Part shown: piece by piece, positions 51,959 through 64,000 of the stretch | Layout of the letters: the number at the start of each line of letters is the position of its first letter | Position numbering within the stretch: position 1 is the first letter of the stretch | Assembly (NCBI GenBank): GCA_963733675.1 | Contig: CAVTET010000004.1 | Span: 448,001 to 512,000, forward strand | DNA from: an uncultured Methanosarcinaceae archaeon | GTDB taxonomy: Archaea; Halobacteriota; Methanosarcinia; Methanosarcinales; Methanosarcinaceae | Length of the DNA stretch: 64,000 nt | Direction: 5' to 3' | Program-made: the position numbers and the translations under genes | The notes under the pieces: model-generated | Database searches by the model: none | What the model saw: the letters and a program-made list of their open reading frames with translations, nothing else | Told to the model about the DNA's origin: nothing

Positions 51959-52876
51959 TTATTTAGATTTCTGAATATCTAAATCCTCGTTTGCCTTTTT
52001 TGTGTCCACATCTATCCAGAGATGCAAATCCCTGTAGGGCATAATTCTGTCGGTTTCGTTGAACAGCAGGAACTCAAGCTTCATATTCTTTCCTTCTGAA
52101 GAAGGTGTAAAAGTAACTGGTTCTTTCCATATCTCATTATTAGCAAGACTGATTTTTTTCTGATTTTCCGGAAGGGGTAGAGATTTATTTTTAAGTTTTA
52201 TATCCATTGTATAGTTCATAGACCTATACTCATGGTTTATTATTCCCACTATTAAAGTACCTTTTTCCCCGACAACATACTTTGTGGTGTAGTTGTCGGC
52301 TTTTCCTTCAGGCCCGAGAATATAGAACTCGGTGAAATGTTCTCCTTCCTTTGGGATTAGAATTATATATACAAGAGTTGTGACAGACAGGAGAATTGAG
52401 AAGATCATAAAAACTGTAAGTGCTTTATCTAGTCTTGACTCTGGCTTTTCCAGGATCTCGGCTCTCAGAGAAAGTATCATTTTCCCAAAGGGTACTTTAA
52501 AAGCGTCGCTTTCCGAAAGTTTTGCCCGTCGCAGGTACGCAATCTCGCACATTACAAAGGTGAAAACTGAAAGGCTTATGAGGGCTGGTAGGAGCCTTAT
52601 CCCCCAGGGGGTGAAGTTAAGGCCAAGCCCTATCAGGGGTACTACTGCAATGCTCAGCCCAAATGAAAGAGCTATCCTCTCGATTCCGTCAATGTCGCAA
52701 TTTGCGGGAAAGAGTGCTGCGATAAGAGAATAACCTGGTAGGAAAAGCACGAGTGGTACGCCAAGTATATTTCTAATTACAGTTTCACTTAATTCAGGCG
52801 TGAGCACAAAGATATCTGTGAGGAGCACGAGCACAATAACGATCAAGAGGTCTGAGGGAATTTTCTTTCCGGTCAT
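51959..52876 (-). CDS. DUF1616 membrane protein
   Basis: FLPGY, ERIALSFGLS, FTEFYILG, KLEFLL, LHLWI. Confidence 0.88.
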   Translation of the reverse strand: MTGKKIPSDLLIVIVLVLLTDIFVLTPELSETVIRNILGVPLVLFLPGYSLIAALFPANCDIDGIERIALSFGLSIAVVPLIGLGLNFTPWGIRLLPALISLSVFTFVMCEIAYLRRAKLSESDAFKVPFGKMILSLRAEILEKPESRLDKALTVFMIFSILLSVTTLVYIILIPKEGEHFTEFYILGPEGKADNYTTKYVVGEKGTLIVGIINHEYRSMNYTMDIKLKNKSLPLPENQKKISLANNEIWKEPVTFTPSSEGKNMKLEFLLFNETDRIMPYRDLHLWIDVDTKKANEDLDIQKSK

Positions 52877-54110: not shown

Positions 54111-54965
54111 GGTTCCGTTGCAAAAACTTCAACAAAATATGTAAATCTATAAGTGATTAATAAAAATCAAAACATTCAAGGAAAATGTACTAACATTATA
54201 AAACTATACCAAATAATTGATTAATGTATTTGACTTCATTAAGAACAGAGTAATTTAAATCGATTACTTGTCCTTTTTTGATCATATTTATAGCTTCAAT
54301 TCCTTTTAAAGTCTTATTAGCAGATCGAAAAGACTGAAATCCTAACATTGGATTAACGATTCGCTTTATAGATCTGTGATCTTGTTCTATAATGTTATTC
54401 AAATACTTGATTTGTCGAATGCCTACGTTTTTAGGTAGTATTTTATCAATTTTTAGTTTATCTATAGCAGGTGGATAAGCTGGATTCTTATCAACGGTTA
54501 TTAATCTTGGAATTTGATTATGATTAGAACTTAAAGCTTTCTTAAAGAATCTCTTCGCTGCCTTTCTATCTCGTTTTGAACTTAACATGAAATCAATTGT
54601 ATCTCCATTTGAGTCAACTGCTCGGTAAAAATATTTCCATTTACCTTTTACTTTGATATAGGTTTCATCAACTCTCCACGAATCATTTGTTGGTCTTAAA
54701 TGTCTTCTTATCTTCTTTTCTATTTAAGGGGAATATTGATGTACCCGTCTCATGATTGTTGTATGGTCGACTTTTACTCCCCTTTCTGCCATCATTTCCT
54801 TTAAATTTCTATAACTTAATGCATATTTTAAGTACCATCTTACATTCAATAAGATAATTTCCCCTTCATAATGCTTCCATTTAAAGGAATTAGATAGCAT
54901 GTTACTATCTTTGGTTTTCTTTTTATTCTATTGTATCATTAGAAAGGATTTTTTGCAACGGAACC
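54111..54965 (-). mobile_element. IS6-family element (855 bp) with nonsense mutation
   Basis: Both IRs intact; near-identical to 7728-8582; in-frame TAA at 54724-54726. Confidence 0.96.
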
Positions 54966-55405: not shown

Positions 55406-56356
55406 TTACGTTAGTTTGGTTACCGGGTGATTTGCCAGATCCGCGATCTCGACACCGAGTTCTTTTGCGGTCTCACCAAGCATGATGTCGACCATTGCTA
55501 CAGCCGGAAAGATCTGGTTGACGTTCTCAATAGGTCCATAGAGGAGAAAATCTGAACCTGCAATCTGTGCTACTAGGTTAGTACCAATGTCTGTAGGCAT
55601 GTAGATAGCTTTTGGATCAGGCTGAGTTTTCTTGAACTTCCGGAGCCAATCCCAGGCAGAAGCCATATTATGGAACCCTCCACCAATAGGTAGCCCAATT
55701 TTTGCTTTGATTGTGGGTATCGAGCGAATTGTGGCTCCAGAACCTGCGCCAAGAGGCATTGCTGCAACGTCTATCAAGGGCGTCTTGATCCCACATTCCT
55801 TTGCGATCTGAATCATCCCTTTTGTTTGTCCGGAACCGCCGACTTCAAGTATGTCTAGTTTTCCTTTTACAGTAGGGTCAGTTGCATTGAAGGCTAGCAC
55901 AATTGCTGCTTCCACGTCACTTTCAGTAAGGACGTCAATTTCACTCTGTTCAATGCTTGCATTGATCGAGTTATGTACAGCTCTGTGTGCAACGCCGATT
56001 TCAGAACAGTATTTAGCAGCAGCAGCCCTTACATCTCCGGCAGAGGAGTCGATTAAGAAAGGAGTGTGGTCATCGATTTCAACGAACCACTTTATGTAAT
56101 TCACAATTGCTTCTGGGGTTTCACCCACGATCTGATTTGCATAGGGAAGCCCTGTGGCATCGCTCATTGCTACCTGCGTGTTCCAAAGCGTTTCAGCAGT
56201 TGCCTTATCGAAAATCCCCTTGTCTTCGTCTGACACGATCTTATGTCTTCCGTAGAACATAGTGCTTACTAATACAGTCGGATATTCACCTGGCTGACCG
56301 CCGAATTTGACTCCACCTAGATCAAAAACTTCCTGTTTTCTATCAAATTTGAACAT
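55406..56356 (-). CDS. mtrH: Mtr methyltransferase subunit H
   Basis: MFKFDRKQEVF, GGQPGEYPT, FLIDS, YGPIEN. Confidence 0.97.
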   Translation of the reverse strand: MFKFDRKQEVFDLGGVKFGGQPGEYPTVLVSTMFYGRHKIVSDEDKGIFDKATAETLWNTQVAMSDATGLPYANQIVGETPEAIVNYIKWFVEIDDHTPFLIDSSAGDVRAAAAKYCSEIGVAHRAVHNSINASIEQSEIDVLTESDVEAAIVLAFNATDPTVKGKLDILEVGGSGQTKGMIQIAKECGIKTPLIDVAAMPLGAGSGATIRSIPTIKAKIGLPIGGGFHNMASAWDWLRKFKKTQPDPKAIYMPTDIGTNLVAQIAGSDFLLYGPIENVNQIFPAVAMVDIMLGETAKELGVEIADLANHPVTKLT

Positions 56357-56372
56357 TTTAAACCCTCATTTG

Positions 56373-56603
56373 TTAATGTATTAATCTGAACATTGATGAT
56401 ACCGAGATATAGATCAGGAAGAGCAGCAGGCCGATAACGCTGCCATATAAAATTCCAATGTCTCTTCCTACTTTTCTACCAATTCTCTGTGCAATTTCAC
56501 TGCCAACGAACTCGACCTTTTCATCAATCTTGTCGAGTCTCTTCATGACCACATTGAACTCAGTTTGATCTACAATAACTACGGGTGCTTTTCCATCACT
56601 CAT
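56373..56603 (-). CDS. mtrG: Mtr subunit G
   Basis: [11 protein letters not shown]...[16 protein letters not shown]. Confidence 0.95.
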
Positions 56604-56608
56604 AGTAT

Positions 56609-56830
56609 TCACCTCCACAACAACAACGGGACTACGATTATCATCAGAAATACAAATATGAATCCCGCTGCGAACCCTAAGATCCCGGTAGAATTTATCC
56701 CAGAATCCAGTTTCTGGTTTCTCGCGATTAACTGGGCCCTATACCGGATACTTTCGACAGTCGAATCTATTGCACCCATCTGAGGGGTGGTTACCATCGG
56801 AACTCCTTTTTCGTATTCAGTTTCTGCCAT
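56609..56830 (-). CDS. mtrF: Mtr subunit F
   Basis: [17 protein letters not shown] plus one TM helix. Confidence 0.95.
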
Positions 56831-56834
56831 TCTT

Positions 56835-57557
56835 TTACCTCCCTACTAATAAAAATCCGAGCAAAGCGATGGTAAAAGTTAATCCTATCATGAACCCTTC
56901 CATTTTTCCAGCACCTACACCGGAGTGGTACTTATTGAGGTTTCCGATGTCTACAAGGCTACTTTCAATTCCTTTCATCCTATTGCGGACCATCGCAATT
57001 TCAGCACCAAGTGGTCTTATCCCAGAGATTTCTTCTTCTTCTCCTGCTCCCTCGGCAATCTTTATTATGAGAGGTTCGCCGTCAAAAGCTCCCGGGTCTT
57101 TTGAGACAAGTTCTTTTATCTTGGAGCTAATTGCACCCATATCTTCGGTATCAAGCAAATTGATGACCTGAACTTGTTGCTGGAAACGGACAATCGCATC
57201 AGCATCTAGGTTTTCCACATATGGAATTGCGCCTACAGCTCCTACAATCCTGTTTTCCTTCACACCGTTTGCATGCAGGGCGATTATTGACTGTCCGATT
57301 ACGTGTCCCTTAACCTCAGCACCAGTCACAAGGAGAAACCTGATATTAGGGTTTGATATAATATGGGCAACGACCTTTTCAATGCCGAGATTTTCTGTTT
57401 TACACGATCCTGTGATTGATGCACCTGCATCAAGAATTGGTTTTCCAGGAAGGTGTGAACCGCAGGTAATTACCAGTACTGGGTTTTTGGGATCCCCAAC
57501 TTCATATTCACCTTTCAGTATGGGCCATCCTGGGGCAGCATCTTTCTTTTCTACCAT
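56835..57557 (-). CDS. mtrA: Mtr subunit A (corrinoid protein)
   Basis: [23 protein letters not shown] cobamide His, GAIPYVEN. Confidence 0.97.
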
Positions 57558-57558
57558 T

Positions 57559-57882
57559 TTAAGCGCCTCCCATTGCAATCCTCAGGTATATATATAGGAC
57601 TACCATCGCAAAGAAAAAAAAGCCAACAACTATCCCATACCAAGCATTGGTATAGAATCCAGCTATGTAAGACATGTGTTCACGTCCCGGCCATGTGTTA
57701 AGGAGCGGCTTGCTCGGGGCAAGAGAATCTATGAGGTCTTCTGCAATTAGATCCAGCTTGTCCAATTTTTCATAGACAGGAGCCAAGCTGTACTGGATAA
57801 TGTCTTCTCGTTCCTGTGCAACAGTACCTGATTCTGTATCCATTACTAGATGTATCTCTGGAGCTATGCGAACGATACTCAT
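57559..57882 (-). CDS. mtrB: Mtr subunit B
   Basis: MSIVRIAPE, PGRE, AGFYTN; operon position. Confidence 0.94.
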   Translation of the reverse strand: MSIVRIAPEIHLVMDTESGTVAQEREDIIQYSLAPVYEKLDKLDLIAEDLIDSLAPSKPLLNTWPGREHMSYIAGFYTNAWYGIVVGFFFFAMVVLYIYLRIAMGGA

Positions 57883-58667
57883 TGCATTTCCTCCTCAGTA
57901 GGCAGCATTCCAGTATCTAAAACTTTGTATGCATCTCTTTTGACAAAGCTGTAGTATTTGTTGAAGCCTTTATACCATATGAAGATTCCAATGAGCATTG
58001 TCACAGCGATTGCTCCCAAACCTGCTACGGATGCGAAGCCTGAAAGGACCATGGCAATTCCCGCTTTTTCCATAGCGAGTGAAAGGCTTCTGTCCTGCAT
58101 TTCATCGGGCCCCAGGTTTGAATTGAATGGGTGCAGCATTGCCATACCACCGGCAATGTAAATCATCATTATAAAGCCTGTTGCAATCACATCTTTAACG
58201 ACTAATACATAATCAAGAGAGCCGGCAATTACAATACTAAATCCAAGAATTAGAAGAGTTCCGGCCCCCGCAATCTCTAGCGTTGCCCTTTCCATGATTG
58301 GGATACCCATCCCAATTATCTTGTTGGCAAGTATACCTATTATAGCTCCGATGACACACGCGGTAATAAATGCAATAATGGGGCCTGCCACTCCTCCGAT
58401 AGAAAGCCCAAATAGAGTGGCAATTACTCCCATACCAAGGGCGAGCATACCAATTGACGGTACACCTGTCCCAAGTCCATAGCTAGCAACACGTCGGACT
58501 ACATCAGCGCCCCAAACACTGGCGCAGATTGCTCCAAGAGCTCCGAAGAATACAAAGACGTGGTTTATTGGGGCAAGGAAATATGCGAGATATATTCCAA
58601 CGAGGCCTCCAACTACACCTAAAGCTAACATTGTATTTGGAGGGTATTTATTTTTTGCATCTGACAT
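57879..58667 (-). CDS. mtrC: Mtr subunit C
   Basis: RRVASYGLGTGVPSIG, HPFN..LGPDE. Confidence 0.96.
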   Translation of the reverse strand: MSDAKNKYPPNTMLALGVVGGLVGIYLAYFLAPINHVFVFFGALGAICASVWGADVVRRVASYGLGTGVPSIGMLALGMGVIATLFGLSIGGVAGPIIAFITACVIGAIIGILANKIIGMGIPIMERATLEIAGAGTLLILGFSIVIAGSLDYVLVVKDVIATGFIMMIYIAGGMAMLHPFNSNLGPDEMQDRSLSLAMEKAGIAMVLSGFASVAGLGAIAVTMLIGIFIWYKGFNKYYSFVKRDAYKVLDTGMLPTEEEMQ

Positions 58668-58668
58668 T

Positions 58669-59394
58669 TTAGAGACCCCCTCCTAGACTTCCAACTGCTA
58701 CTACTGCTACAATAGCGCAGAAAATTGATGCAATGAAGGAAGCAAGAGCTGCTTTTGGCCATTTTTTGAATTTAGGATCATGGTATCCTTCAATGGTACC
58801 ACCAATGTTGTAAGAAGGTATAACCGAGTTTATAAAGAAGAAACCTATGGTGAAAGTAGATACAACAGCTGAAAGGTTCAGATCAGTTACTGGGAGAGTT
58901 GATACTTTCATGAGAGCATAGTATACAAGTGCACCCCCAAGTCCTCCAAGGGCAGCTCCGATAGTTGCACTTACGAAACAGACTGTTGGAATACCATGTC
59001 CTTCAGTACCTTGGGACACATAGAGGTCCTGTCTGTACTTTGTAATGGGATCATACTTTACTTTAGCCGAAACTGGAATAACGCCCACACCATAGACATA
59101 GACCCAAGTAGCTACTATCATGGTTGCAGCTAACATGACCATTGAACCGACTGCTCCAGCAGCTATGACCAGAGGGAGATTTTGGTTTACAGCCATTACA
59201 GTTCCAGCGGCTATGATCCCAGCAATTCCAGCTCCAGCTGCAAGCATAACAGTACCTGTGCCGATACCTGTTGCCTGAGACATTGCAGCGGGGGCACCAC
59301 CTACAGGTATGAAGTGAACGCTCTGGGAAATCAGCGTACCACCGATTACGATCGCCAGGATCCAAATAAGATTGGCTGTAATGAGTTCTATCAC
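58669..59394 (-). CDS. mtrD: Mtr subunit D
   Basis: VHFIPVGGAPAAM, GTEGHG, SYNIGGTIEG.HDPKF. Confidence 0.96.
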   Translation of the reverse strand: MIELITANLIWILAIVIGGTLISQSVHFIPVGGAPAAMSQATGIGTGTVMLAAGAGIAGIIAAGTVMAVNQNLPLVIAAGAVGSMVMLAATMIVATWVYVYGVGVIPVSAKVKYDPITKYRQDLYVSQGTEGHGIPTVCFVSATIGAALGGLGGALVYYALMKVSTLPVTDLNLSAVVSTFTIGFFFINSVIPSYNIGGTIEGYHDPKFKKWPKAALASFIASIFCAIVAVVAVGSLGGGL

Positions 59395-60305
59395 GCTGAC
59401 ACCTCTTCTGTTTTATCTTCTTTGTAAGGCCCAAATTTTTCGCGAGATTCCTTTTCGATGTGCCAGTTCCAAATGCCTAAAACAACAACAATAAGAAAAC
59501 CTAGAATATTAGAAAGCCATCCCTCTCTAAGCCCTCTTGCAGGGTCGAAAACGATTAGGATCCAGATACCCAGGAATACGACCATCCCAAAAGCAACTCC
59601 TGTCATTGGTCCTCCGAACTTTGAACAGAACCAGAGGTTATCTATCCCATTCCTGAGGCCTGATTCACCTTTACGGACAATGTTTCCAGAGTTTGAAGCA
59701 TTCAAACCAGAACCAAATTCAGTCTGCTGGAACTGACGCTCTGAGCCTAAATGAACGTCACCTGTAGCCGATCCGACTGAGCCTACTACAACTCCCCATA
59801 GAAAGGACAATAATACAAACGGGAAAGGATGAGCTAGTGCATAGACCATTAGATACGAGACTACCTCAACACTGAAGGTAGTTAAAAACGCAAAGGCCAT
59901 GATCACTGGGGTGTGGGATCTTATCAGATCCAGATATATTGGTTGCTTAAATCTTGCCTGGCTAGCCTCTCTGCCCATGATTGCAGTTACTGAATAGCTT
60001 CCATGTACCATAGCTGCAATAAGGGCTCCTATAACCAGTGCAAAGAGAGGGGACATTCCAAAATGTTTTATTAATACAAGAGCTCCAGTAGCACCTATTG
60101 TGCACATCATTCCATTGGAGACCGGTTCCCCAGCAATAGCTTTATTATAATATCGATGTATGTAGCCCATCTGGGGTGCTAACTGAATTTGTGAATTAGC
60201 ATTACTCTGTGATCCTACATCGGATTCCAGGTCCTCTGAAGCACCTGCAATGGTAGCAGCGGCTCCAATAAGTGCGAGCACTCCCATGCTTATGAGTGGT
60301 TCCAT
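59391..60305 (-). CDS. mtrE: Mtr subunit E (divergent)
   Basis: EDLESDVGSQSN, QLAPQM, HPFP, TGDVH, FCSKFGGP. Confidence 0.97.
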   Translation of the reverse strand: MEPLISMGVLALIGAAATIAGASEDLESDVGSQSNANSQIQLAPQMGYIHRYYNKAIAGEPVSNGMMCTIGATGALVLIKHFGMSPLFALVIGALIAAMVHGSYSVTAIMGREASQARFKQPIYLDLIRSHTPVIMAFAFLTTFSVEVVSYLMVYALAHPFPFVLLSFLWGVVVGSVGSATGDVHLGSERQFQQTEFGSGLNASNSGNIVRKGESGLRNGIDNLWFCSKFGGPMTGVAFGMVVFLGIWILIVFDPARGLREGWLSNILGFLIVVVLGIWNWHIEKESREKFGPYKEDKTEEVSA

Positions 60306-60769
60306 TCATTTTCCTCCTTATATTATTACATGTAATAATCCGGATTGAAAAAACGTTGTATATTTTCTGAAGTTATTTGTCATTTTATGCAACGAAAAAT
60401 AACGAATGACAAACATTGAATTTTTGATTAGAGAGGATCATTCATAAACCTTTCGAAATTTGGGTGTATTTAAACGATTTTTATCAATTAATTTGATGCA
60501 TAATTCGTTATTTTTGAGGAGTTAATTCGGTTAAAATGAGCGAATCCGCATTTATATATTAAAAAATAAATTTAAATTTTATTAATATAATATAAAGATT
60601 CCGATTGTCATTCTTAACTATTACATTTATTTTTTCAAAATGTATATCTAATAATTTTATATAAATAAGCTTTTCTAGCATCGGTTTTTATATTAATTCT
60701 CGTTATAAATTATACATTATGCTAATTTTATCTAGTACTTCCAAATAAATGAAATGCGATTTTCTTATC

Positions 60770-60910
60770 TTAAATTTCTGCAGATGTACACAACAAGGCT
60801 ATCGATTTTCTCAATATGGCATTAGATTGAAAATTAATCTACCTTTCAATAAATAATGTTCAAAATGGGTAAATAAATTGTACAGCTATTTATATCTGCG
60901 AAAAATAAGA
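60770..60910. mobile_element. MITE family B copy, reverse orientation
   Basis: TTCTGCAGATGTACACAA ... TATATCTGCGAAAA; reverse complement matches 34316-34398. Confidence 0.62.
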
Positions 60911-61071
60911 TAACTTTATTATCTGATGATTACTAGAGTTAAATAGAAAATTTAGCATCTACGCCGAATTTTCAGTTTTCTAGACAAATTCTAGAATGTG
61001 CTACAGCAATCTATATTATCTAATGCATGAAACTTTCAATCAAGTACAGCTATTCGCACAGGTGTTAACTC

Positions 61072-61239
61072 ATGGCTAAAAAATCAGGCAATGGACTTCA
61101 GTCTTCTGCGGGGCTCATGCGCTACTATGAAGCTGACAAAAATGCAGTTCAAATTCAGCCCAAAGTAGTAATTATTGTCGGTGCAATTGTAGGCATAATA
61201 GTATTGTTTTTAGGTGCTCTAAATCACGGTTGGCCATAA
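61072..61239 (+). CDS. secG: Preprotein translocase subunit Sec61beta (55 aa, missed by the ORF track)
   Basis: MAKKSGNGLQSSAGLMRYYEADKNAVQIQP plus one TM helix; RBS AGGTG. Confidence 0.93.
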   Translation: MAKKSGNGLQSSAGLMRYYEADKNAVQIQPKVVIIVGAIVGIIVLFLGALNHGWP

Positions 61240-61849
61240 TTATCATTTTTCGGGCAGGTATCTTTTGAACAGGCATAATTCAGGAAAATGAGATAGCTAA
61301 AAACTTTTCTTCGAAAGGAATAGTTACTAAACCCATCGTTTTGCTTTTGGGTCTCTTCTTGCATACCGGTGGGTGTATTCGGAGTCTTGTAAAGTCTTTT
61401 AATTCTCCCTAAGCCGTATCTCCATGGAAGTTTTTGGTATCAAGTTCAGGATTTTATCTTTCTCATTTTGAAAAACGGTATTTTACAACTAGAAAATCGG
61501 GAACAAGTATGTTCATGAAAATCCATATACTTTTAGTTGCTGTCTTCTTAAAATGAAGGAGGCTAAATCAGGCTCTACGAAGATTCATGCACACTCTTCT
61601 TCTAAGGTCATAGTTTAGCTCCAGAAGCTGGGATCGGTAGTAAAGGATAGCATGATGACTTGGTTGTAGAAGTTTCAAAGTTGTGGTATACAATCCTGAA
61701 TGTTGATCAGCGCAAATATACGGCATAAATGCAAATAAAATATTGAGTTTTTGGACATATCTCTGCATCGATTTTGGCATATTTCTTCACATTTTTGGCT
61801 TTACTTGTTTTTTCGTTCTATCAAAATTTGTTTACAGATACCGGTATTT

Positions 61850-62650
61850 TTAGAGGAGAAGAGGAATTATCCCAAAAACAAAGACATTTATGAAGCCATG
61901 AATCATCGCAACCAGGGGAAGGCTGCGTGTTTTGTAAAACAGGTACCCTAAAAATATGCCCACAAAGGATGCGTACAAAACTTCACCAATGCTTCCATAT
62001 CCTGTATGCATAAGTCCAAATAAAATACTTGTAATTATCAAACCTGACCGATTACCAAGTGTTATCTGCAGCCTATTCTGAATGATTGATCTGTAAATTA
62101 TCTCTTCCACAAGGCCTACGAAAAAGATCATAACTATGCTGAGCATCAGGAGGTTAAAGGTTGAGAGGTTTGAAATTAGATAGTTTGTCTTGATTATTAG
62201 ATATTCTCCTCCTCCAAGAAGAAGGCCTACTAATATTGAAAATGGTGCATATAACCATATTTTCTTGAAGGTCATTCCGAGCTGTGTGCGAGTAAGTTCC
62301 TGATTGGTTGCTGCAATACTTACTGGAATTGCCAGGATACCGTATGTGAAAATAAAGGAATAAAGCGTTTTCTCATAATAAAGTGGCATTGAAAGGTTAA
62401 CTAGACGTAGGATCGGCAGGAGAATAAGAGATAGGTAGGTTTTCTGGATCTCCGTGTTTTTTACAAACATCATGGAAAAGGAGAGCCCTAGCAGGATCGC
62501 TGCATGTATTTCCAGGGCTTCTATCTTCATTCCCCAAAATATCAATATCTCTGCAAAGGCAATTGCTGCAACTGGTATTCCTATATAATACCATATGTTT
62601 TTAATCTTAACTGGGCTTTCCCTAAGATTACCAAATGTTTCCATTTTCAT
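61850..62650 (-). CDS. CPBP (CAAX/Abi) intramembrane metalloprotease
   Basis: EEIIYR, FGLMH, HGFIN motifs. Confidence 0.9.
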   Translation of the reverse strand: MKMETFGNLRESPVKIKNIWYYIGIPVAAIAFAEILIFWGMKIEALEIHAAILLGLSFSMMFVKNTEIQKTYLSLILLPILRLVNLSMPLYYEKTLYSFIFTYGILAIPVSIAATNQELTRTQLGMTFKKIWLYAPFSILVGLLLGGGEYLIIKTNYLISNLSTFNLLMLSIVMIFFVGLVEEIIYRSIIQNRLQITLGNRSGLIITSILFGLMHTGYGSIGEVLYASFVGIFLGYLFYKTRSLPLVAMIHGFINVFVFGIIPLLL

Positions 62651-63534
62651 ACTCTCTTTGATACATTTATCCAGAGGCGTAGATTTTTATAGGGTATTTT
62701 CTTCTCTGTTTCGTTGAAAAGCAGGAATTCGAGTTTCTGATTCTTTCCTTCAGTAAAAGGTGTAATCTTAAGTGGTTCTTCTATGGTCGTGTTATGGGCG
62801 AGCCTTATATTTTTCAGGTTTTTCTGAAAGGGTAAGGATTCGTTTTCAACCCTGACGTCCATTGTGTAATTCATTGTTTTGTACTCATCGTTCACTATCC
62901 CTATAATGTAGGTCCCGCTTTCACCTTGTACGTACTCTGTTGTATAATTTTCAGCCATCTTTTGAGGTCCGAGAATATAGAATTCCGTAAATGGCTCTCT
63001 TTCATGAGGTGTGAGGGTAACGTAAGTCAGAGTTCCAATCAGGACCAGGAAAGAAATGGCTAGAAATGTCCTGAGGATCTTCTCAGTTTTTGATTCAGAT
63101 TTTTCCGTAATTTTAGTCAGTAGGGTAAGAGCAGAAGTCCTCAAAGAAACTCCAAACATCCTGTTTTCGGGTAGTTCTCTCCGTCTTGAGTACGCTACTC
63201 CAGACATGAGTAGAGTAAATGCAGACAGGCTTGTAAGTAGGGGAATTTCCCTAATTCCCCAGGGTGTAAAGTTAATTACAAGCCCTATTAGAGGTACTAT
63301 CGCAACGCTTAGCCCGACTGAAAGAGCTATTCTTTCCATCCCTTCAAGTCCAGTTTCTTCTGGAAAAAGCACGGATATCAGAGAATATCCTGGAAGGAAA
63401 ATTAATAGGAATAAACCAAGAATAATACGGATGAAACTTTCGTTGAGTGGATAAACAAGTATGAAAATATTCGTAAGAATCACAAGGCCTGCTACAAACA
63501 GCAGGTCAGATGGAAACTTTTGGTTTCCGGCCAT
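62647..63534 (-). CDS. DUF1616 membrane protein
   Basis: FLPGY, ERIALSVGLS, FTEFYILG, LRLWIN; paralog of 51959-52876. Confidence 0.88.
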   Translation of the reverse strand: MAGNQKFPSDLLFVAGLVILTNIFILVYPLNESFIRIILGLFLLIFLPGYSLISVLFPEETGLEGMERIALSVGLSVAIVPLIGLVINFTPWGIREIPLLTSLSAFTLLMSGVAYSRRRELPENRMFGVSLRTSALTLLTKITEKSESKTEKILRTFLAISFLVLIGTLTYVTLTPHEREPFTEFYILGPQKMAENYTTEYVQGESGTYIIGIVNDEYKTMNYTMDVRVENESLPFQKNLKNIRLAHNTTIEEPLKITPFTEGKNQKLEFLLFNETEKKIPYKNLRLWINVSKRV

Positions 63535-64000
63535 ATAAATCCTCGTAAAGCTGTTTATTCGTTATTTAATTGCATAAAGTACCTATCTCCTTTCCTGCTT
63601 GCTATATCAAATACTTTTCCTTTTTTTCGATCTTCTTGAAATGTATTCTCAACCTTTCAATCGATTTTTTTATTTTCTTTTCAAATAAATTTTTTAGCCT
63701 GAGTTTGAAAGCTTTTAATTTTAATTGGATACCATGAAGAATTCATAACTAGTCAACCTACACAAAAATCAGTTCGTGAATATTTATTTTGATATAATAC
63801 ATGCTTCTGATTGCGGACTTATTAAATAATCCAAAACATTGTCAATAGCCGACAGTTGGATAAAATGAGGCCATCAAAATTGGCACATTTAATTTTGATA
63901 GATATAGTTATTGATATTGTTTTTCTTCGCTGAATGGTTACAAAAATTCGTTGGGTTTTTATATCAGTTTGATTTTTCCCCCCATTACTACCCCGCTTAA

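What the first reader, a model, noticed from the sequence alone, without database searches (positions are those of the whole stretch)
59766..60134. MtrE lacks both serines of the presumed Na+ site: candidate H+-coupled or Na+-independent Mtr
Seen: MtrE reads NKAIAGEP (A58, 60132-60134) and GSVGSATGD (A180, 59766-59768); acidic E60 and D183 are kept and the whole mtrEDCBAFGH operon is intact. Recalled, not checked: canonical MtrE has NKA[IV]SGEPP and GAIGSSTGD, and cryo-EM models place the pumped Na+ on Ser/Glu ligands from these two motifs. Inference: losing the Ser ligands while keeping the carboxylate is the same pattern that separates H+- from Na+-binding ATP synthase c-rings. This central methanogen pump may have changed coupling ion, as might suit a low-Na+ or acidic habitat.
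Basis: partly seen in the sequence, partly recalled or inferred. Interest (0 to 1): 0.82.

Follow-up and report, generated by a model that had tools for sequence, protein, structure and literature searches.

The report
Divergent Mtr pump in peat Methanosarcina
The two serine-to-alanine changes are real, but they sit beside rather than in the sodium-binding site of this methanogen's membrane methyltransferase, and they mark a soil and peat Methanosarcina lineage whose ion-pumping core changed in one evolutionary burst.

Summary
MtrE (59391-60305, minus strand) has Ala58 and Ala180 where both solved MtrE structures have Ser. The mtrEDCBAFGH operon is intact and is the only one in the genome.

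The premise is wrong. Three cryo-EM papers name Ser28/29, Glu60 and Asp183 plus three waters as the Na+ ligands. They never name Ser58 or Ser180. All three ligands are kept here.

Ala at these positions also occurs elsewhere:
- Methanothermus fervidus has both.
- 33 of 33 sampled Methanomicrobiales have A180, and 8 of those also have A58.
- A Methanoperedens subclade has A180.

What is really there is larger. In 14 of 54 Methanosarcina species genomes MtrE carries A36, A58, V62, A180 and L186. Named members are labelled bog, fen, pasture or soil. This clade has a long stem branch in MtrE, MtrD and MtrC but not in MtrH or McrA. Its changes at conserved sites cluster in MtrE TM5 and MtrD TM2, the two walls of the proposed Na+ tunnel.

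The window's own subclade also has no intact PF00999 antiporter and no SSF symporter.

The complex is most likely still a Na+ pump that has been retuned. H+ coupling is unproven.

The parts
59391..60305 (-). mtrE, 304 aa. It is the only MtrE gene found in the genome and is the variant form.
   Evidence: ORF, Pfam PF04206 E 3.8e-126, ungapped match to 9qtq_M, single locus in G000.
60132..60134 (-). Codon 58, GCT = Ala (Ser in both solved structures).
   Evidence: 25 of 25 variant sequences have Ala.
59766..59768 (-). Codon 180, GCT = Ala (Ser in both solved structures).
60198..60200 (-). Codon 36, Ala. It is Pro in the other Methanosarcinaceae, Methanobacteriales and Methanomicrobiales sampled. 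It follows Asn35, which links the metallocluster to Asp183.
   Evidence: Role of Asn35 from the preprint passages.
60120..60122 (-). Codon 62, Val. Pro62 is part of the cluster-supporting loop in M. mazei. Val is the usual residue in Methanobacteriales.
59748..59750 (-). Codon 186, Leu. It is Tyr in every other group tallied. A few divergent 50% representatives have other residues.
60222..60224 (-). Codon 28, Ser. This is the serine that the structures name as a Na+ ligand, and it is kept.
60126..60128 (-). Codon 60, Glu. Na+ ligand, kept.
59757..59759 (-). Codon 183, Asp. Na+ ligand, kept.
59757..59819 (-). MtrE TM5 (codons 163-183), one wall of the proposed Na+ tunnel. It carries 6 of the 19 clade-fixed changes at sites conserved across the family: L163F, I169L, I172V, A176S, I177V, S180A.
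   Evidence: Fisher p 0.0027; strict 163-178 range p 0.0025.
58669..59394 (-). mtrD, 241 aa.
59191..59253 (-). MtrD TM2 (codons 48-68), the other wall of the proposed tunnel. It carries 5 of the 12 clade-fixed changes at conserved sites: Q50M, L57I, T58A, L60I, V61I. Gln50 is the partner of the cluster's apical water in M. mazei. M. marburgensis has Met there.
57879..58667 (-). mtrC, 262 aa. The cluster-supporting loop reads the same as in M. mazei.
57559..57882 (-). mtrB, 107 aa.
56835..57578 (-). mtrA. The ORF from the TTG start gives 247 aa. The true start may be the later Met, since the Pfam match begins at residue 11.
56609..56830 (-). mtrF, 73 aa.
56373..56618 (-). mtrG, 81 aa from a GTG start.
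55406..56356 (-). mtrH, 316 aa. This cytoplasmic subunit did not take part in the burst.

Best explanation
This is the sole, intact and probably transcribed Mtr complex (N5-methyl-tetrahydrosarcinapterin:coenzyme M methyltransferase) of a soil and peat lineage of Methanosarcina.

Its first-shell Na+ ligands (Ser28, Glu60, Asp183) and the neighbouring acidic and polar residues are unchanged. I therefore think it most likely still couples methyl transfer to Na+ translocation. This step is inferred, not shown.

Ala58 and Ala180 are neighbours of the ligands in the sequence, not ligands themselves. They belong to a clade-defining set in MtrE (A36, A58, V62, A180, L186) that goes with Q50M and other changes in MtrD.

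The set arose in one episode on the stem of the clade. That episode hit MtrE hardest, then MtrD and MtrC, and left MtrH and McrA untouched. Afterwards the new state was conserved as tightly as the canonical one.

The changes at otherwise conserved sites cluster on MtrE TM5 and MtrD TM2, the two helices proposed to line the Na+ exit tunnel, and on the loops at the Na+ site and metallocluster pocket. The likeliest meaning is an adaptive retuning of the ion path (affinity, gating or stoichiometry), not a loss of Na+ binding. This too is inferred.
For: Shown:
- Intact operon with a single MtrE locus.
- Ligands named in three papers. S28, E60, D183, D25, D29, N35, M46, G59, P61, R112, R118 and S179 are kept in 13 of 13 variant rows.
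- The variant is found in 13 full-length and 1 partial of the 54 Methanosarcina genomes with an MtrE match. Identities are bimodal (89-100% versus 67-72%) and no genome holds both forms.
- The variant clade is monophyletic in all eight subunit trees. Together with canonical Methanosarcina it forms a clade of exactly those rows in 7 of 8 trees; MtrF is the exception.
- Stem lengths under one model: E 0.374, D 0.348, C 0.303, B 0.241, A 0.165, F 0.148, G 0.137, H 0.060. Stem divided by within-clade depth is 3.5 for E and 0.6-1.5 for the others.
- Mean MtrE identity between variant and canonical is 70.5%. That is lower than canonical versus other genera (74.4%). Within the variant clade it is 91.7%, the same as within the canonical group. 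For MtrH the figures are 86.6% versus 71.1%.
- McrA of G000 is 85-92% identical to 10 canonical genomes and 90-92% to 2 variant genomes.
- Clade-fixed changes at sites conserved across the family: 6 of 16 eligible sites in MtrE TM5 versus 13 of 162 outside (p 0.0027); 5 of 17 in MtrD TM2 versus 7 of 105 (p 0.013).
- These helices are the ones proposed as tunnel walls.
- V62 in MtrE and M50 in MtrD are the states of M. marburgensis, whose enzyme binds Na+.
- A58 and A180 occur in other lineages.
- The PET-bearing helix of the A-type ATP synthase c subunit is identical in 3 variant and 10 canonical Methanosarcina.
- RNA-library contigs from 4 studies cover 25-30 of 30 bins of the operon at 95% identity or more.
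Against: - No functional data exist for any member of the clade.
- The only two enzymes with proven Na+ dependence or pumping have Ser58, Ser180, Pro36 and Tyr186. No proven Na+ pump carries this residue set.
- Tyr186 is Tyr in every other group tallied. Its loss, together with two hydroxyls next to the two carboxylates, could change ion selectivity.
- I could not measure distances in the structures, so 'second shell' is inferred from sequence position and from co-variation.
- The window's own subclade has no intact PF00999 antiporter, no SSF symporter, and no Mrp (PF03334) or Rnf (PF03116) hit. That fits a reduced Na+ cycle.
- The enrichment tests rest on few sites, and the MtrE TM5 range is carried over from M. 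marburgensis numbering.
- RNA-library contigs do not prove transcription.
Confidence: 0.6

Rival explanations
1. The coupling ion has changed. The clade's Mtr translocates H+, or both H+ and Na+. The loss of three hydroxyls (S58, S180, Y186) around Glu60 and Asp183 favours protonation over Na+ binding, which would suit low-Na+, often acidic soils and peat.
For: - The five clade-fixed changes sit in the Na+ site and cluster loops.
- The burst is concentrated on the proposed ion path.
- The labels of named members and of the RNA runs point to bog, fen, peat and soil.
- In the window's subclade all three PF00999 loci of G000 are broken.
- G019, G067, G055, G066 and G064 have no match better than E 1e-38, or none at all.
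- No SSF hit in G000, G019 or G067.
- The Methanosarcina ATP synthase is reported to use both ions (passages of PMC7399021), so an H+-pumping Mtr would be workable.
Against: - The first-shell ligands and both carboxylates are kept.
- S58 and S180 are not named as ligands in any of the three papers.
- A58+A180 occur in M. fervidus and in 8 of 33 Methanomicrobiales. A180 occurs in all 33 Methanomicrobiales, in 7 of 117 Methanoperedenaceae sequences and in 2 Methanolapillus-type sequences.
- Deeper clade members with the same MtrE signature keep intact antiporters (G001, G005, G016, G020, G050, G052, G058, G063). The antiporter loss is therefore later and not tied to the MtrE change.
- Canonical freshwater-type G013 also lacks Rnf and MrpG hits.
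- G000 keeps a second c subunit whose residues match what I recall as the Na+ signature (the motif is recalled).
Confidence: 0.12
2. The changes are functionally neutral, or compensatory co-evolution. A chance fixation (for example in a bottleneck) of one or a few slightly harmful changes in the tightly packed MtrCDE core set off a cascade of compensating substitutions, with no change in ion, affinity or stoichiometry.
For: - Most changes are conservative (I/L/V, A/S).
- Several reproduce states that are normal in other orders (V62, M50, A180, A58, A36).
- The changes sit on helices that contact each other, as compensation would predict.
- Constraint after the burst equals the canonical level.
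Against: - The burst hits the subunit that is otherwise the best conserved of the membrane subunits. It removes Tyr186, which is Tyr in every other group tallied.
- It is restricted to the membrane and ion part of one complex, while MtrH and McrA of the same genomes show nothing.
- The clade is ecologically coherent by its labels.
Confidence: 0.2
3. The operon, or its mtrEDCBA part, was acquired by horizontal transfer or is an old paralogue that replaced the canonical copy.
For: - Variant MtrE and MtrD are no closer to canonical Methanosarcina than to other genera (E: 70.5% versus 67.0%; canonical versus other genera 74.4%).
- An IS240-type transposase remnant lies just downstream of mtrH.
Against: - In the trees the variant clade groups with canonical Methanosarcina (SH-aLRT 99 for MtrE). 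The genus node holds exactly the variant plus canonical rows in 7 of 8 subunit trees.
- The gradient of divergence runs along the operon without a break in gene order.
- No genome has two copies.
- No donor-like sequence appeared among the 1201 hits, of which the best 120 were seen, or among the 71 representatives at 50% identity.
Confidence: 0.04
4. Selection is relaxed on an Mtr that is no longer needed (for example a methyl-reducing lifestyle), so the gene is decaying.
For: Mtr is dispensable for H2-dependent methyl reduction (recalled, not checked here).
Against: - All eight genes are intact.
- Within-clade MtrE identity is 91.7%, equal to the canonical group, across genomes whose MtrH differs by up to 14%.
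- All catalytic and ligand residues checked are kept.
- The operon is found in RNA libraries.
Confidence: 0.03

Closest known systems
Methanosarcina mazei MtrABCDEFGH (PDB 9qtq/9qts; PMC12774963; anaerobic structure in bioRxiv 10.64898/2026.07.03.736320)
   Same: Same operon, same subunit lengths, and an ungapped 304-residue MtrE alignment. Same Na+ ligands S28/E60/D183. Same D25, D29, N35, M46, G59, P61, R112, R118 and S179. The MtrC cluster loop is identical.
   Different: Canonical Methanosarcina MtrE is about 70% identical to the window's, where 92% is normal within the genus. MtrE differs by P36A, S58A, P62V, S180A and Y186L, plus six changes in TM5. MtrD differs by Q50M and four further TM2 changes.
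Methanothermobacter marburgensis Mtr(ABCDEFG)3 (PDB 8q3v/8q54; PMC10998594)
   Same: Same Na+ ligands (Ser29, Glu61, Asp187 in its numbering). MtrE has Val at the position of V62, and MtrD has Met at the position of M50, as here.
   Different: It has Ser at 58 and 180, Pro36 and Tyr186. It is from a different order.
Methanothermus fervidus MtrE (P0192)
   Same: It is the only one of 120 Methanobacteriales sequences in the tally with both A58 and A180, and it keeps E60 and D183.
   Different: It has Thr at position 28, Pro36 and Tyr186. It is 44% identical to the window's MtrE (representative P0124). It is a thermophilic hydrogenotroph (recalled), and I saw no Na+ transport data for it.
Methanomicrobiales MtrE (33 loci: Methanospirillum, Methanoculleus, Methanoregulaceae and others)
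   Same: A180 in 33 of 33, and A58 as well in 8 of 33.
   Different: The site is built differently: Asn at 183 and Asp at 35 in 33 of 33. The comparison is therefore indirect.
Na+ versus H+ binding sites of ATP synthase c-rings
   Same: Polar side chains near a buried carboxylate are replaced by non-polar ones.
   Different: In c-rings the residues that are lost are direct Na+ ligands (recalled). Here the direct ligands are all kept, and the lost hydroxyls are not named as ligands in any structure paper.

Membership tests
Mtr complex, subunit MtrE (Pfam PF04206) | Full-length match to the MtrE profile above the curated cut-off | tested here: met
   420.4 bits against a cut-off of 26.6, profile positions 1-271 of 271.
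Mtr complex | All eight subunit genes in the order mtrEDCBAFGH | tested here: met
   Eight Pfam families found on consecutive minus-strand ORFs from 55406 to 60305.
Na+-translocating Mtr | First-shell Na+ ligands Ser28, Glu60 and Asp183 (M. mazei numbering) | tested here: met
   Kept in the window and in 25 of 25 variant sequences. Ligands as named.
Na+-translocating Mtr | Conserved charged pocket Asp25/Asp29, gate residues Asn35/Ser179, and CoM-binding Arg112 | tested here: met
   13 of 13 variant rows. Roles taken.
Na+-translocating Mtr | Cluster-supporting loop Gly59-Pro61-Pro62 of MtrE with MtrD Gly47/Gln50 and MtrC Gly71/Pro73 | tested here: inconclusive
   G59, P61, MtrD G47 and the MtrC loop are kept. 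P62 is Val and Q50 is Met. Both are the M. marburgensis states, and the preprint says Gln50 is Met in some organisms.
Na+-translocating Mtr | Na+-stimulated methyl transfer and Na+ transport | not testable with these tools
   This needs biochemistry. It is known only for M. mazei and M. marburgensis (as cited).
H+-coupled derivative of a Na+ pump (c-ring-like switch) | Loss of direct polar Na+ ligands while the carboxylate is kept | tested here: not met
   No named ligand is lost. The lost hydroxyls at 58, 180 and 186 are not named as ligands.
H+-coupled derivative of a Na+ pump | The rest of the cell's Na+ cycle is dismantled throughout the lineage that carries the change | tested here: not met
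   This is true only of the window's subclade: 6 genomes without a strong PF00999 match, of which G000, G019 and G067 were also searched for SSF, with no hit. The 8 deeper clade genomes keep intact antiporters.

The most novel reading that the evidence does not exclude
A quarter of the known Methanosarcina species, all in one soil and peat clade, run the central methanogenic methyltransferase with a rebuilt ion path that no longer selects for Na+ (H+ or mixed coupling). In the bog/fen subclade that holds this window, the now useless Na+ cycle was then dismantled: all cation/H+ antiporters became pseudogenes and the Na+/solute symporters were lost.
Probability: 0.12. Interest if true: 0.9.

Novelty: new variant of a known kind. 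Interest (0 to 1): 0.5.

Why it matters
Mtr is the one coupling site shared by nearly all methanogens. How methyl transfer drives ion movement is still unresolved; the 2026 preprint calls it one of the major open questions.

This clade is a natural experiment. Within a single genus, the two helices proposed to form the Na+ tunnel, and the loops around the Na+ site and metallocluster, were rewritten once and then frozen. The rest of the complex and of the methanogenic machinery stayed ordinary.

Swapping these few residues, or whole subunits, into the genetically tractable Methanosarcina species would directly test the proposed MtrD-TM2/MtrE-TM5 pathway and the determinants of ion affinity or selectivity.

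The clade is common in peat and soil data sets, which are major methane sources. Its bioenergetics may therefore matter for how these methanogens cope with very low Na+. If the coupling ion had truly changed, it would overturn the textbook statement that Mtr is always a Na+ pump.

Tried and rejected
1. Sequencing or assembly error: rejected. 25 independent sequences share the residues.

2. Second, canonical mtr operon in the genome: not found. There is one MtrE locus in G000 (92% complete). In the other genus genomes every match is a single locus, sometimes in fragments.

3. Baseline divergence from the genes flanking the operon: failed. Synteny outside mtr is kept only in the nearest relatives. 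I used MtrH and McrA instead.

4. The 50%-identity representative search gave only 71 hits, most of them fragments. It served only as a first look at diversity.

5. Rnf (PF03116) and Mrp (PF03334) as discriminators: not informative. There was no hit in three variant genomes, but also none in canonical G013. NhaA, NhaC and SNF gave no hit in any of the five genomes searched.

6. ATP synthase c subunit as evidence of an ion switch: rejected. The ion-binding helix is identical in variant and canonical genomes.

7. Frameshifts in the antiporter genes as long-read artefacts: unlikely.
   - Of 16 other G000 loci tested, 13 were intact, 3 gave only partial matches and 0 were split. This is a small sample.
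   - Two paralogous copies share an in-frame TAA at the same place.
   - G019 shares the truncation of the third gene.
   - For G067, G055, G066 and G064, 'no intact gene' is inferred only from weak best E-values or the absence of a match. These genomes are 73-80% complete.

8. Structure prediction and fold search: not run. These tools return no coordinates, so the distances from residues 36, 58, 180 and 186 to the Na+ could not be measured.

9. Codon-level dN/dS: not attempted. Synonymous sites are expected to be saturated, and no suitable program was at hand.

10. Literature: two searches listed no paper that proposes an H+-coupled Mtr or describes this clade's MtrE. Only the listings were read. 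These include the conservation figures of PMC10998594 and Supplementary Table 1 of the preprint on Gln50/Met, and they may bear on residues 58, 180 and 186.

12. Parts of the operon without cover in single RNA runs are not evidence of anything.
Full report
**The observation**

The minus-strand ORF 59391-60305 encodes a 304-residue protein. It matches Pfam MtrE over the whole profile. It aligns without a gap, residue 1 to 304, with the MtrE chain of the M. mazei cryo-EM structure 9qtq, so M. mazei residue numbers apply directly.

Codon 58 (60132-60134) and codon 180 (59766-59768) are both GCT, Ala. The motifs read NKAIAGEP and GSVGSATGD. Both solved MtrE chains, 9qtq_M from M. mazei and 8q3v_E from M. 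marburgensis, have Ser at both places. The seven ORFs downstream are MtrD, C, B, A, F, G and H, each with a full-length Pfam match. A family search of the window's own genome (3.92 Mb, 15 contigs, 92% complete) found this MtrE locus and no other.

**What the structures say about these residues**

I read passages of the two published structure papers (PMC10998594; PMC12774963). I also read passages and sections 5, 8 and 9 of a 2026 preprint (10.64898/2026.07.03.736320).

All three describe one Na+ in a side pocket of MtrE, bound octahedrally by a serine of the LESD motif, Glu60, Asp183 and three waters. The serine is Ser29 in M. marburgensis. For M. mazei it is written Ser28 in one paper and Ser29 in the other; in the alignment it is residue 28.

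Asp25, Asp29, Asn35 and Ser179 are described as lining the pocket or its entry. Ser58 and Ser180 (Ser59 and Ser184 in M. marburgensis numbering) do not occur in the main texts (0 occurrences). I could not see figures or supplements.

But the serine ligand comes from a third motif. That serine, and every other named residue, is kept here.

**How common Ala is at these positions**

- Other Methanosarcinaceae: 135 of 137 sequences are S58/S180. Two Methanolapillus-type sequences have A180.
- Methanobacteriales: 119 of 120 are S/S. The exception is Methanothermus fervidus, with T28, A58 and A180.
- Methanomicrobiales: all 33 loci have A180 and 8 also have A58. Their site is built differently, with Asn183 and Asp35.
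- Methanoperedenaceae: 7 of 117 sequences have T28, A36 and A180 with S58. One such locus, L031, also has V62.
- Several unnamed 50% representatives have A58, or C58 with A36, V62 and A180.

S180A has thus arisen at least five times. Each time it came with another change at 28, 35/36, 58, 181 or 183. That pattern suggests, by inference only, that residue 180 packs against the pocket. Neither Ala is diagnostic of a special enzyme. It remains true that the two enzymes with biochemical proof of Na+ dependence have Ser at both positions.

**The clade**

All sequences 86-98% identical to the window's MtrE share five changes in the otherwise near-invariant motifs: P36A, S58A, P62V, S180A and Y186L. 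Tyr186 is Tyr in all 137 Methanosarcinaceae, 120 Methanobacteriales, 33 Methanomicrobiales and 117 Methanoperedenaceae sequences tallied.

In the species-level genome set the genus holds 59 genomes, and 54 have an MtrE match. Of these, 13 full-length matches and one partial match are 89-100% identical to the window. All the others are 67-72% identical, with nothing in between and no genome holding both forms.

Named records of the clade are MAGs or assemblies labelled Methanosarcina sp. bog_70, fen_51, Ant1, UBA5, Bin.035_Pasture, two SMAG and several MFD isolates. That these are soil and peat organisms is read from those labels only. 23 of the 24 listed public runs that hold part of the operon are metatranscriptomes, most labelled peat and spread over 20 studies. 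Contigs from four of them, from four studies, cover 25-30 of 30 bins of the operon at 95% identity or more, including both Ala codons. Contigs from RNA libraries suggest transcription but do not prove it.

**An episodic burst in the membrane core**

Identity between the window and canonical Methanosarcina is 70-72% for MtrE, 64-71% for MtrD and 61-66% for MtrC, but 87-90% for MtrH. For McrA it is 85-92% against canonical genomes and 90-92% against two other clade members.

Mean MtrE identity between variant and canonical sequences (70.5%) is lower than between canonical Methanosarcina and other genera (74.4%). Within the clade it is 91.7%, exactly the same as within the canonical group.

The clade is monophyletic in all eight subunit trees. 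Together with canonical Methanosarcina it forms a node holding only those rows in seven of the eight trees. That argues for vertical descent.

Under one model the stem branch is 0.374 for E, 0.348 for D, 0.303 for C, 0.241 for B, 0.165 for A, 0.148 for F, 0.137 for G and 0.060 for H. The stem relative to the later depth of the clade is 3.5 for MtrE and 0.6-1.5 for the rest. With a site-mixture model the MtrE stem is 0.55, against 0.06 for the canonical stem.

So MtrE, normally the best conserved membrane subunit, changed most, changed once, and was then held fixed.

**Where the changes lie**

I listed sites where the clade and canonical Methanosarcina each have a 90% consensus and differ, and where 14 loci of other genera agree with the canonical residue.

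| Subunit | Sites of this kind |
|---|---|
| MtrE | 19 |
| MtrD | 12 |
| MtrC | 7 |
| MtrB | 3 |
| MtrA | 2 |
| MtrF | 0 |
| MtrG | 1 |
| MtrH | 4 |

In MtrE, six lie in residues 163-183: L163F, I169L, I172V, A176S, I177V and S180A. This range is helix V of the M. marburgensis paper shifted by four residues and extended to Asp183. That is 6 of 16 eligible conserved sites, against 13 of 162 elsewhere (Fisher p 0.0027). With the strict 163-178 range it is 5 of 11 against 14 of 167 (p 0.0025).

In MtrD, five lie in residues 48-68: Q50M, L57I, T58A, L60I and V61I. That is 5 of 17 against 7 of 105 (p 0.013).

The preprint proposes that Na+ leaves through a tunnel between TM2 of MtrD (residues 48-68) and TM5 of MtrE. 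It reports that these tunnel-lining residues are as conserved as the metallocluster site. It also names MtrE Gly59, Pro61 and Pro62 and MtrD Gly47 and Gln50 as parts of the pocket of the [Fe8S9C] cluster, and Asn35 as the link between the cluster and Asp183.

The clade's fixed changes therefore concentrate on both walls of the proposed ion path and on the loops at the Na+ site and cluster. These tests use few sites and a sequence-based definition of the helices. They need to be repeated on the real coordinates.

**Not all of it is new chemistry**

Val62 is the normal residue of Methanobacteriales, including M. marburgensis. Met at MtrD position 50 is also the M. marburgensis residue, and the preprint notes that Gln50 is Met in some organisms. 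A36, A58 and A180 occur elsewhere, as listed above. Only Leu186 is unmatched in the main groups tallied. The MtrC loop that supports the cluster is unchanged.

**The rest of the Na+ economy**

The helix of the A-type ATP synthase c subunit that bears the PET motif is identical in three clade genomes and ten canonical ones. G000 also keeps a second, F/N-type c subunit with residues that I recall as the Na+-binding signature.

Rnf and MrpG were not found in three clade genomes, but neither were they found in the canonical closed genome G013. By these markers the clade looks like the freshwater type of Methanosarcina.

One result was unexpected. All three PF00999 (cation/H+ exchanger) loci of G000 are broken by frameshifts and in-frame stops.
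- Two paralogous copies share the same in-frame TAA.
- The third is truncated at the same place in G019.
- Of 16 other G000 loci tested, 13 were intact, 3 gave only partial matches and none was split.
- Across the genus, the six genomes whose MtrE is 93-100% identical to the window's (G000, G019, G067, G064, G055, G066) have no match better than E 1e-38, or none at all.
- The eight deeper clade members and the canonical genomes, with the exception of G056 and G009, have strong (E 1e-52 or better) full-length matches in ORFs of about 400-700 aa. Four of the six near-subclade genomes are only 73-80% complete.
- NhaA and NhaC were found in none of the five genomes searched.
- SSF symporters were found in none of G000, G019 or G067, but once in G001 and three times in G013, in both cases with one copy beside mtrE.

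The window's subclade thus seems to have shed its recognisable Na+-coupled transporters. This happened after the Mtr change, not together with it.

**Reading**

The most likely account (0.6) is this. The complex is a working Mtr whose Na+ site is intact in its first shell. Its ion path was retuned once, early in a soil and peat lineage of Methanosarcina. Ala58 and Ala180 are two of the markers of that event, not lost ligands.

A true change of coupling ion stays possible (about 0.12). In favour: three hydroxyls next to the two carboxylates are gone, no proven Na+ pump has this set, and the subclade's Na+ transporters have decayed. Against: the kept ligands, the recurrence of A58 and A180 in other lineages, and the intact antiporters of the deeper clade members.

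Neutral compensatory drift (0.2) cannot be excluded without function or codon-level tests. Transfer from outside (0.04) and decay (0.03) are contradicted by the trees and by the conservation.

**Novelty and score**

The complex is a member of a well-known family. The lineage-wide, ion-path-centred variant does not appear in the listings of my two literature searches. I rate it a new variant of a known kind, with interest 0.5. It is well above ordinary, because the clade offers a sharp natural test of the proposed Na+ pathway of Mtr.

Noticed in passing
Loci L077-L111 (Methanomicrobiales MtrE): All 33 Methanomicrobiales MtrE sequences have Asn in place of the Na+ ligand Asp183, together with Asp in place of Asn35 and Ala180 (GSATGN and SQGDPNSQ). 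It looks as if the carboxylate had moved across the pocket.
   Followed up: partly
G000 contigs C5:79654-81664, C4:292885-294103, C3:559449-560563: All three PF00999 cation/H+ exchanger genes of the window's genome are pseudogenes, with frameshifts and in-frame stops. Two paralogues share the same TAA. Five close relatives also lack a strong match, while deeper clade members and canonical Methanosarcina have intact genes.
   Followed up: partly
G001:C22:16369-17577 and G013:C1:3862963-3864171, compared with window 60306-64000: A sodium:solute symporter family gene lies next to mtrE in a deeper clade member and in a canonical genome. No SSF hit exists anywhere in G000, G019 or G067. In the window, Sec61beta, an Rce1-like protease and a DUF1616 gene lie upstream of mtrE instead.
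   Followed up: partly
window 54196-54900, minus strand: A remnant of an IS240/IS6-type DDE transposase lies about 0.5 kb downstream of mtrH, split into two ORFs of 58 and 130 aa. Only the 130-aa ORF gave a Pfam hit (PF13610); reading the 58-aa ORF as its N-terminal part is my inference.
   Followed up: partly
window 51962-52876 and 62647-63534, minus strand: There are two DUF1616 membrane-protein paralogues, one on each side of the mtr operon. The 51962-52876 ORF matched ORFs in the three nearest relatives' loci at about 54% identity.
   Followed up: no
G006:C8:205403-206307: A canonical Methanosarcina genome (99% complete, 10 contigs) has its only mtrE match interrupted by an in-frame TGA and split into two pieces.
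   Followed up: no
G000:C1:1086992-1087177 (locus L158): A second, F/N-type ATPase c subunit is present in G000, as in several other Methanosarcina. Its residues match what I recall as the Na+-binding signature.
   Followed up: no
Locus L031 (G040) and proteins P0315-P0321: A Methanoperedenaceae subclade independently combines T28, A36 and A180 in MtrE (7 of 117 sequences; 6 of the 7 also have V62). It thus shares three of the five changes of the Methanosarcina clade.
   Followed up: partly
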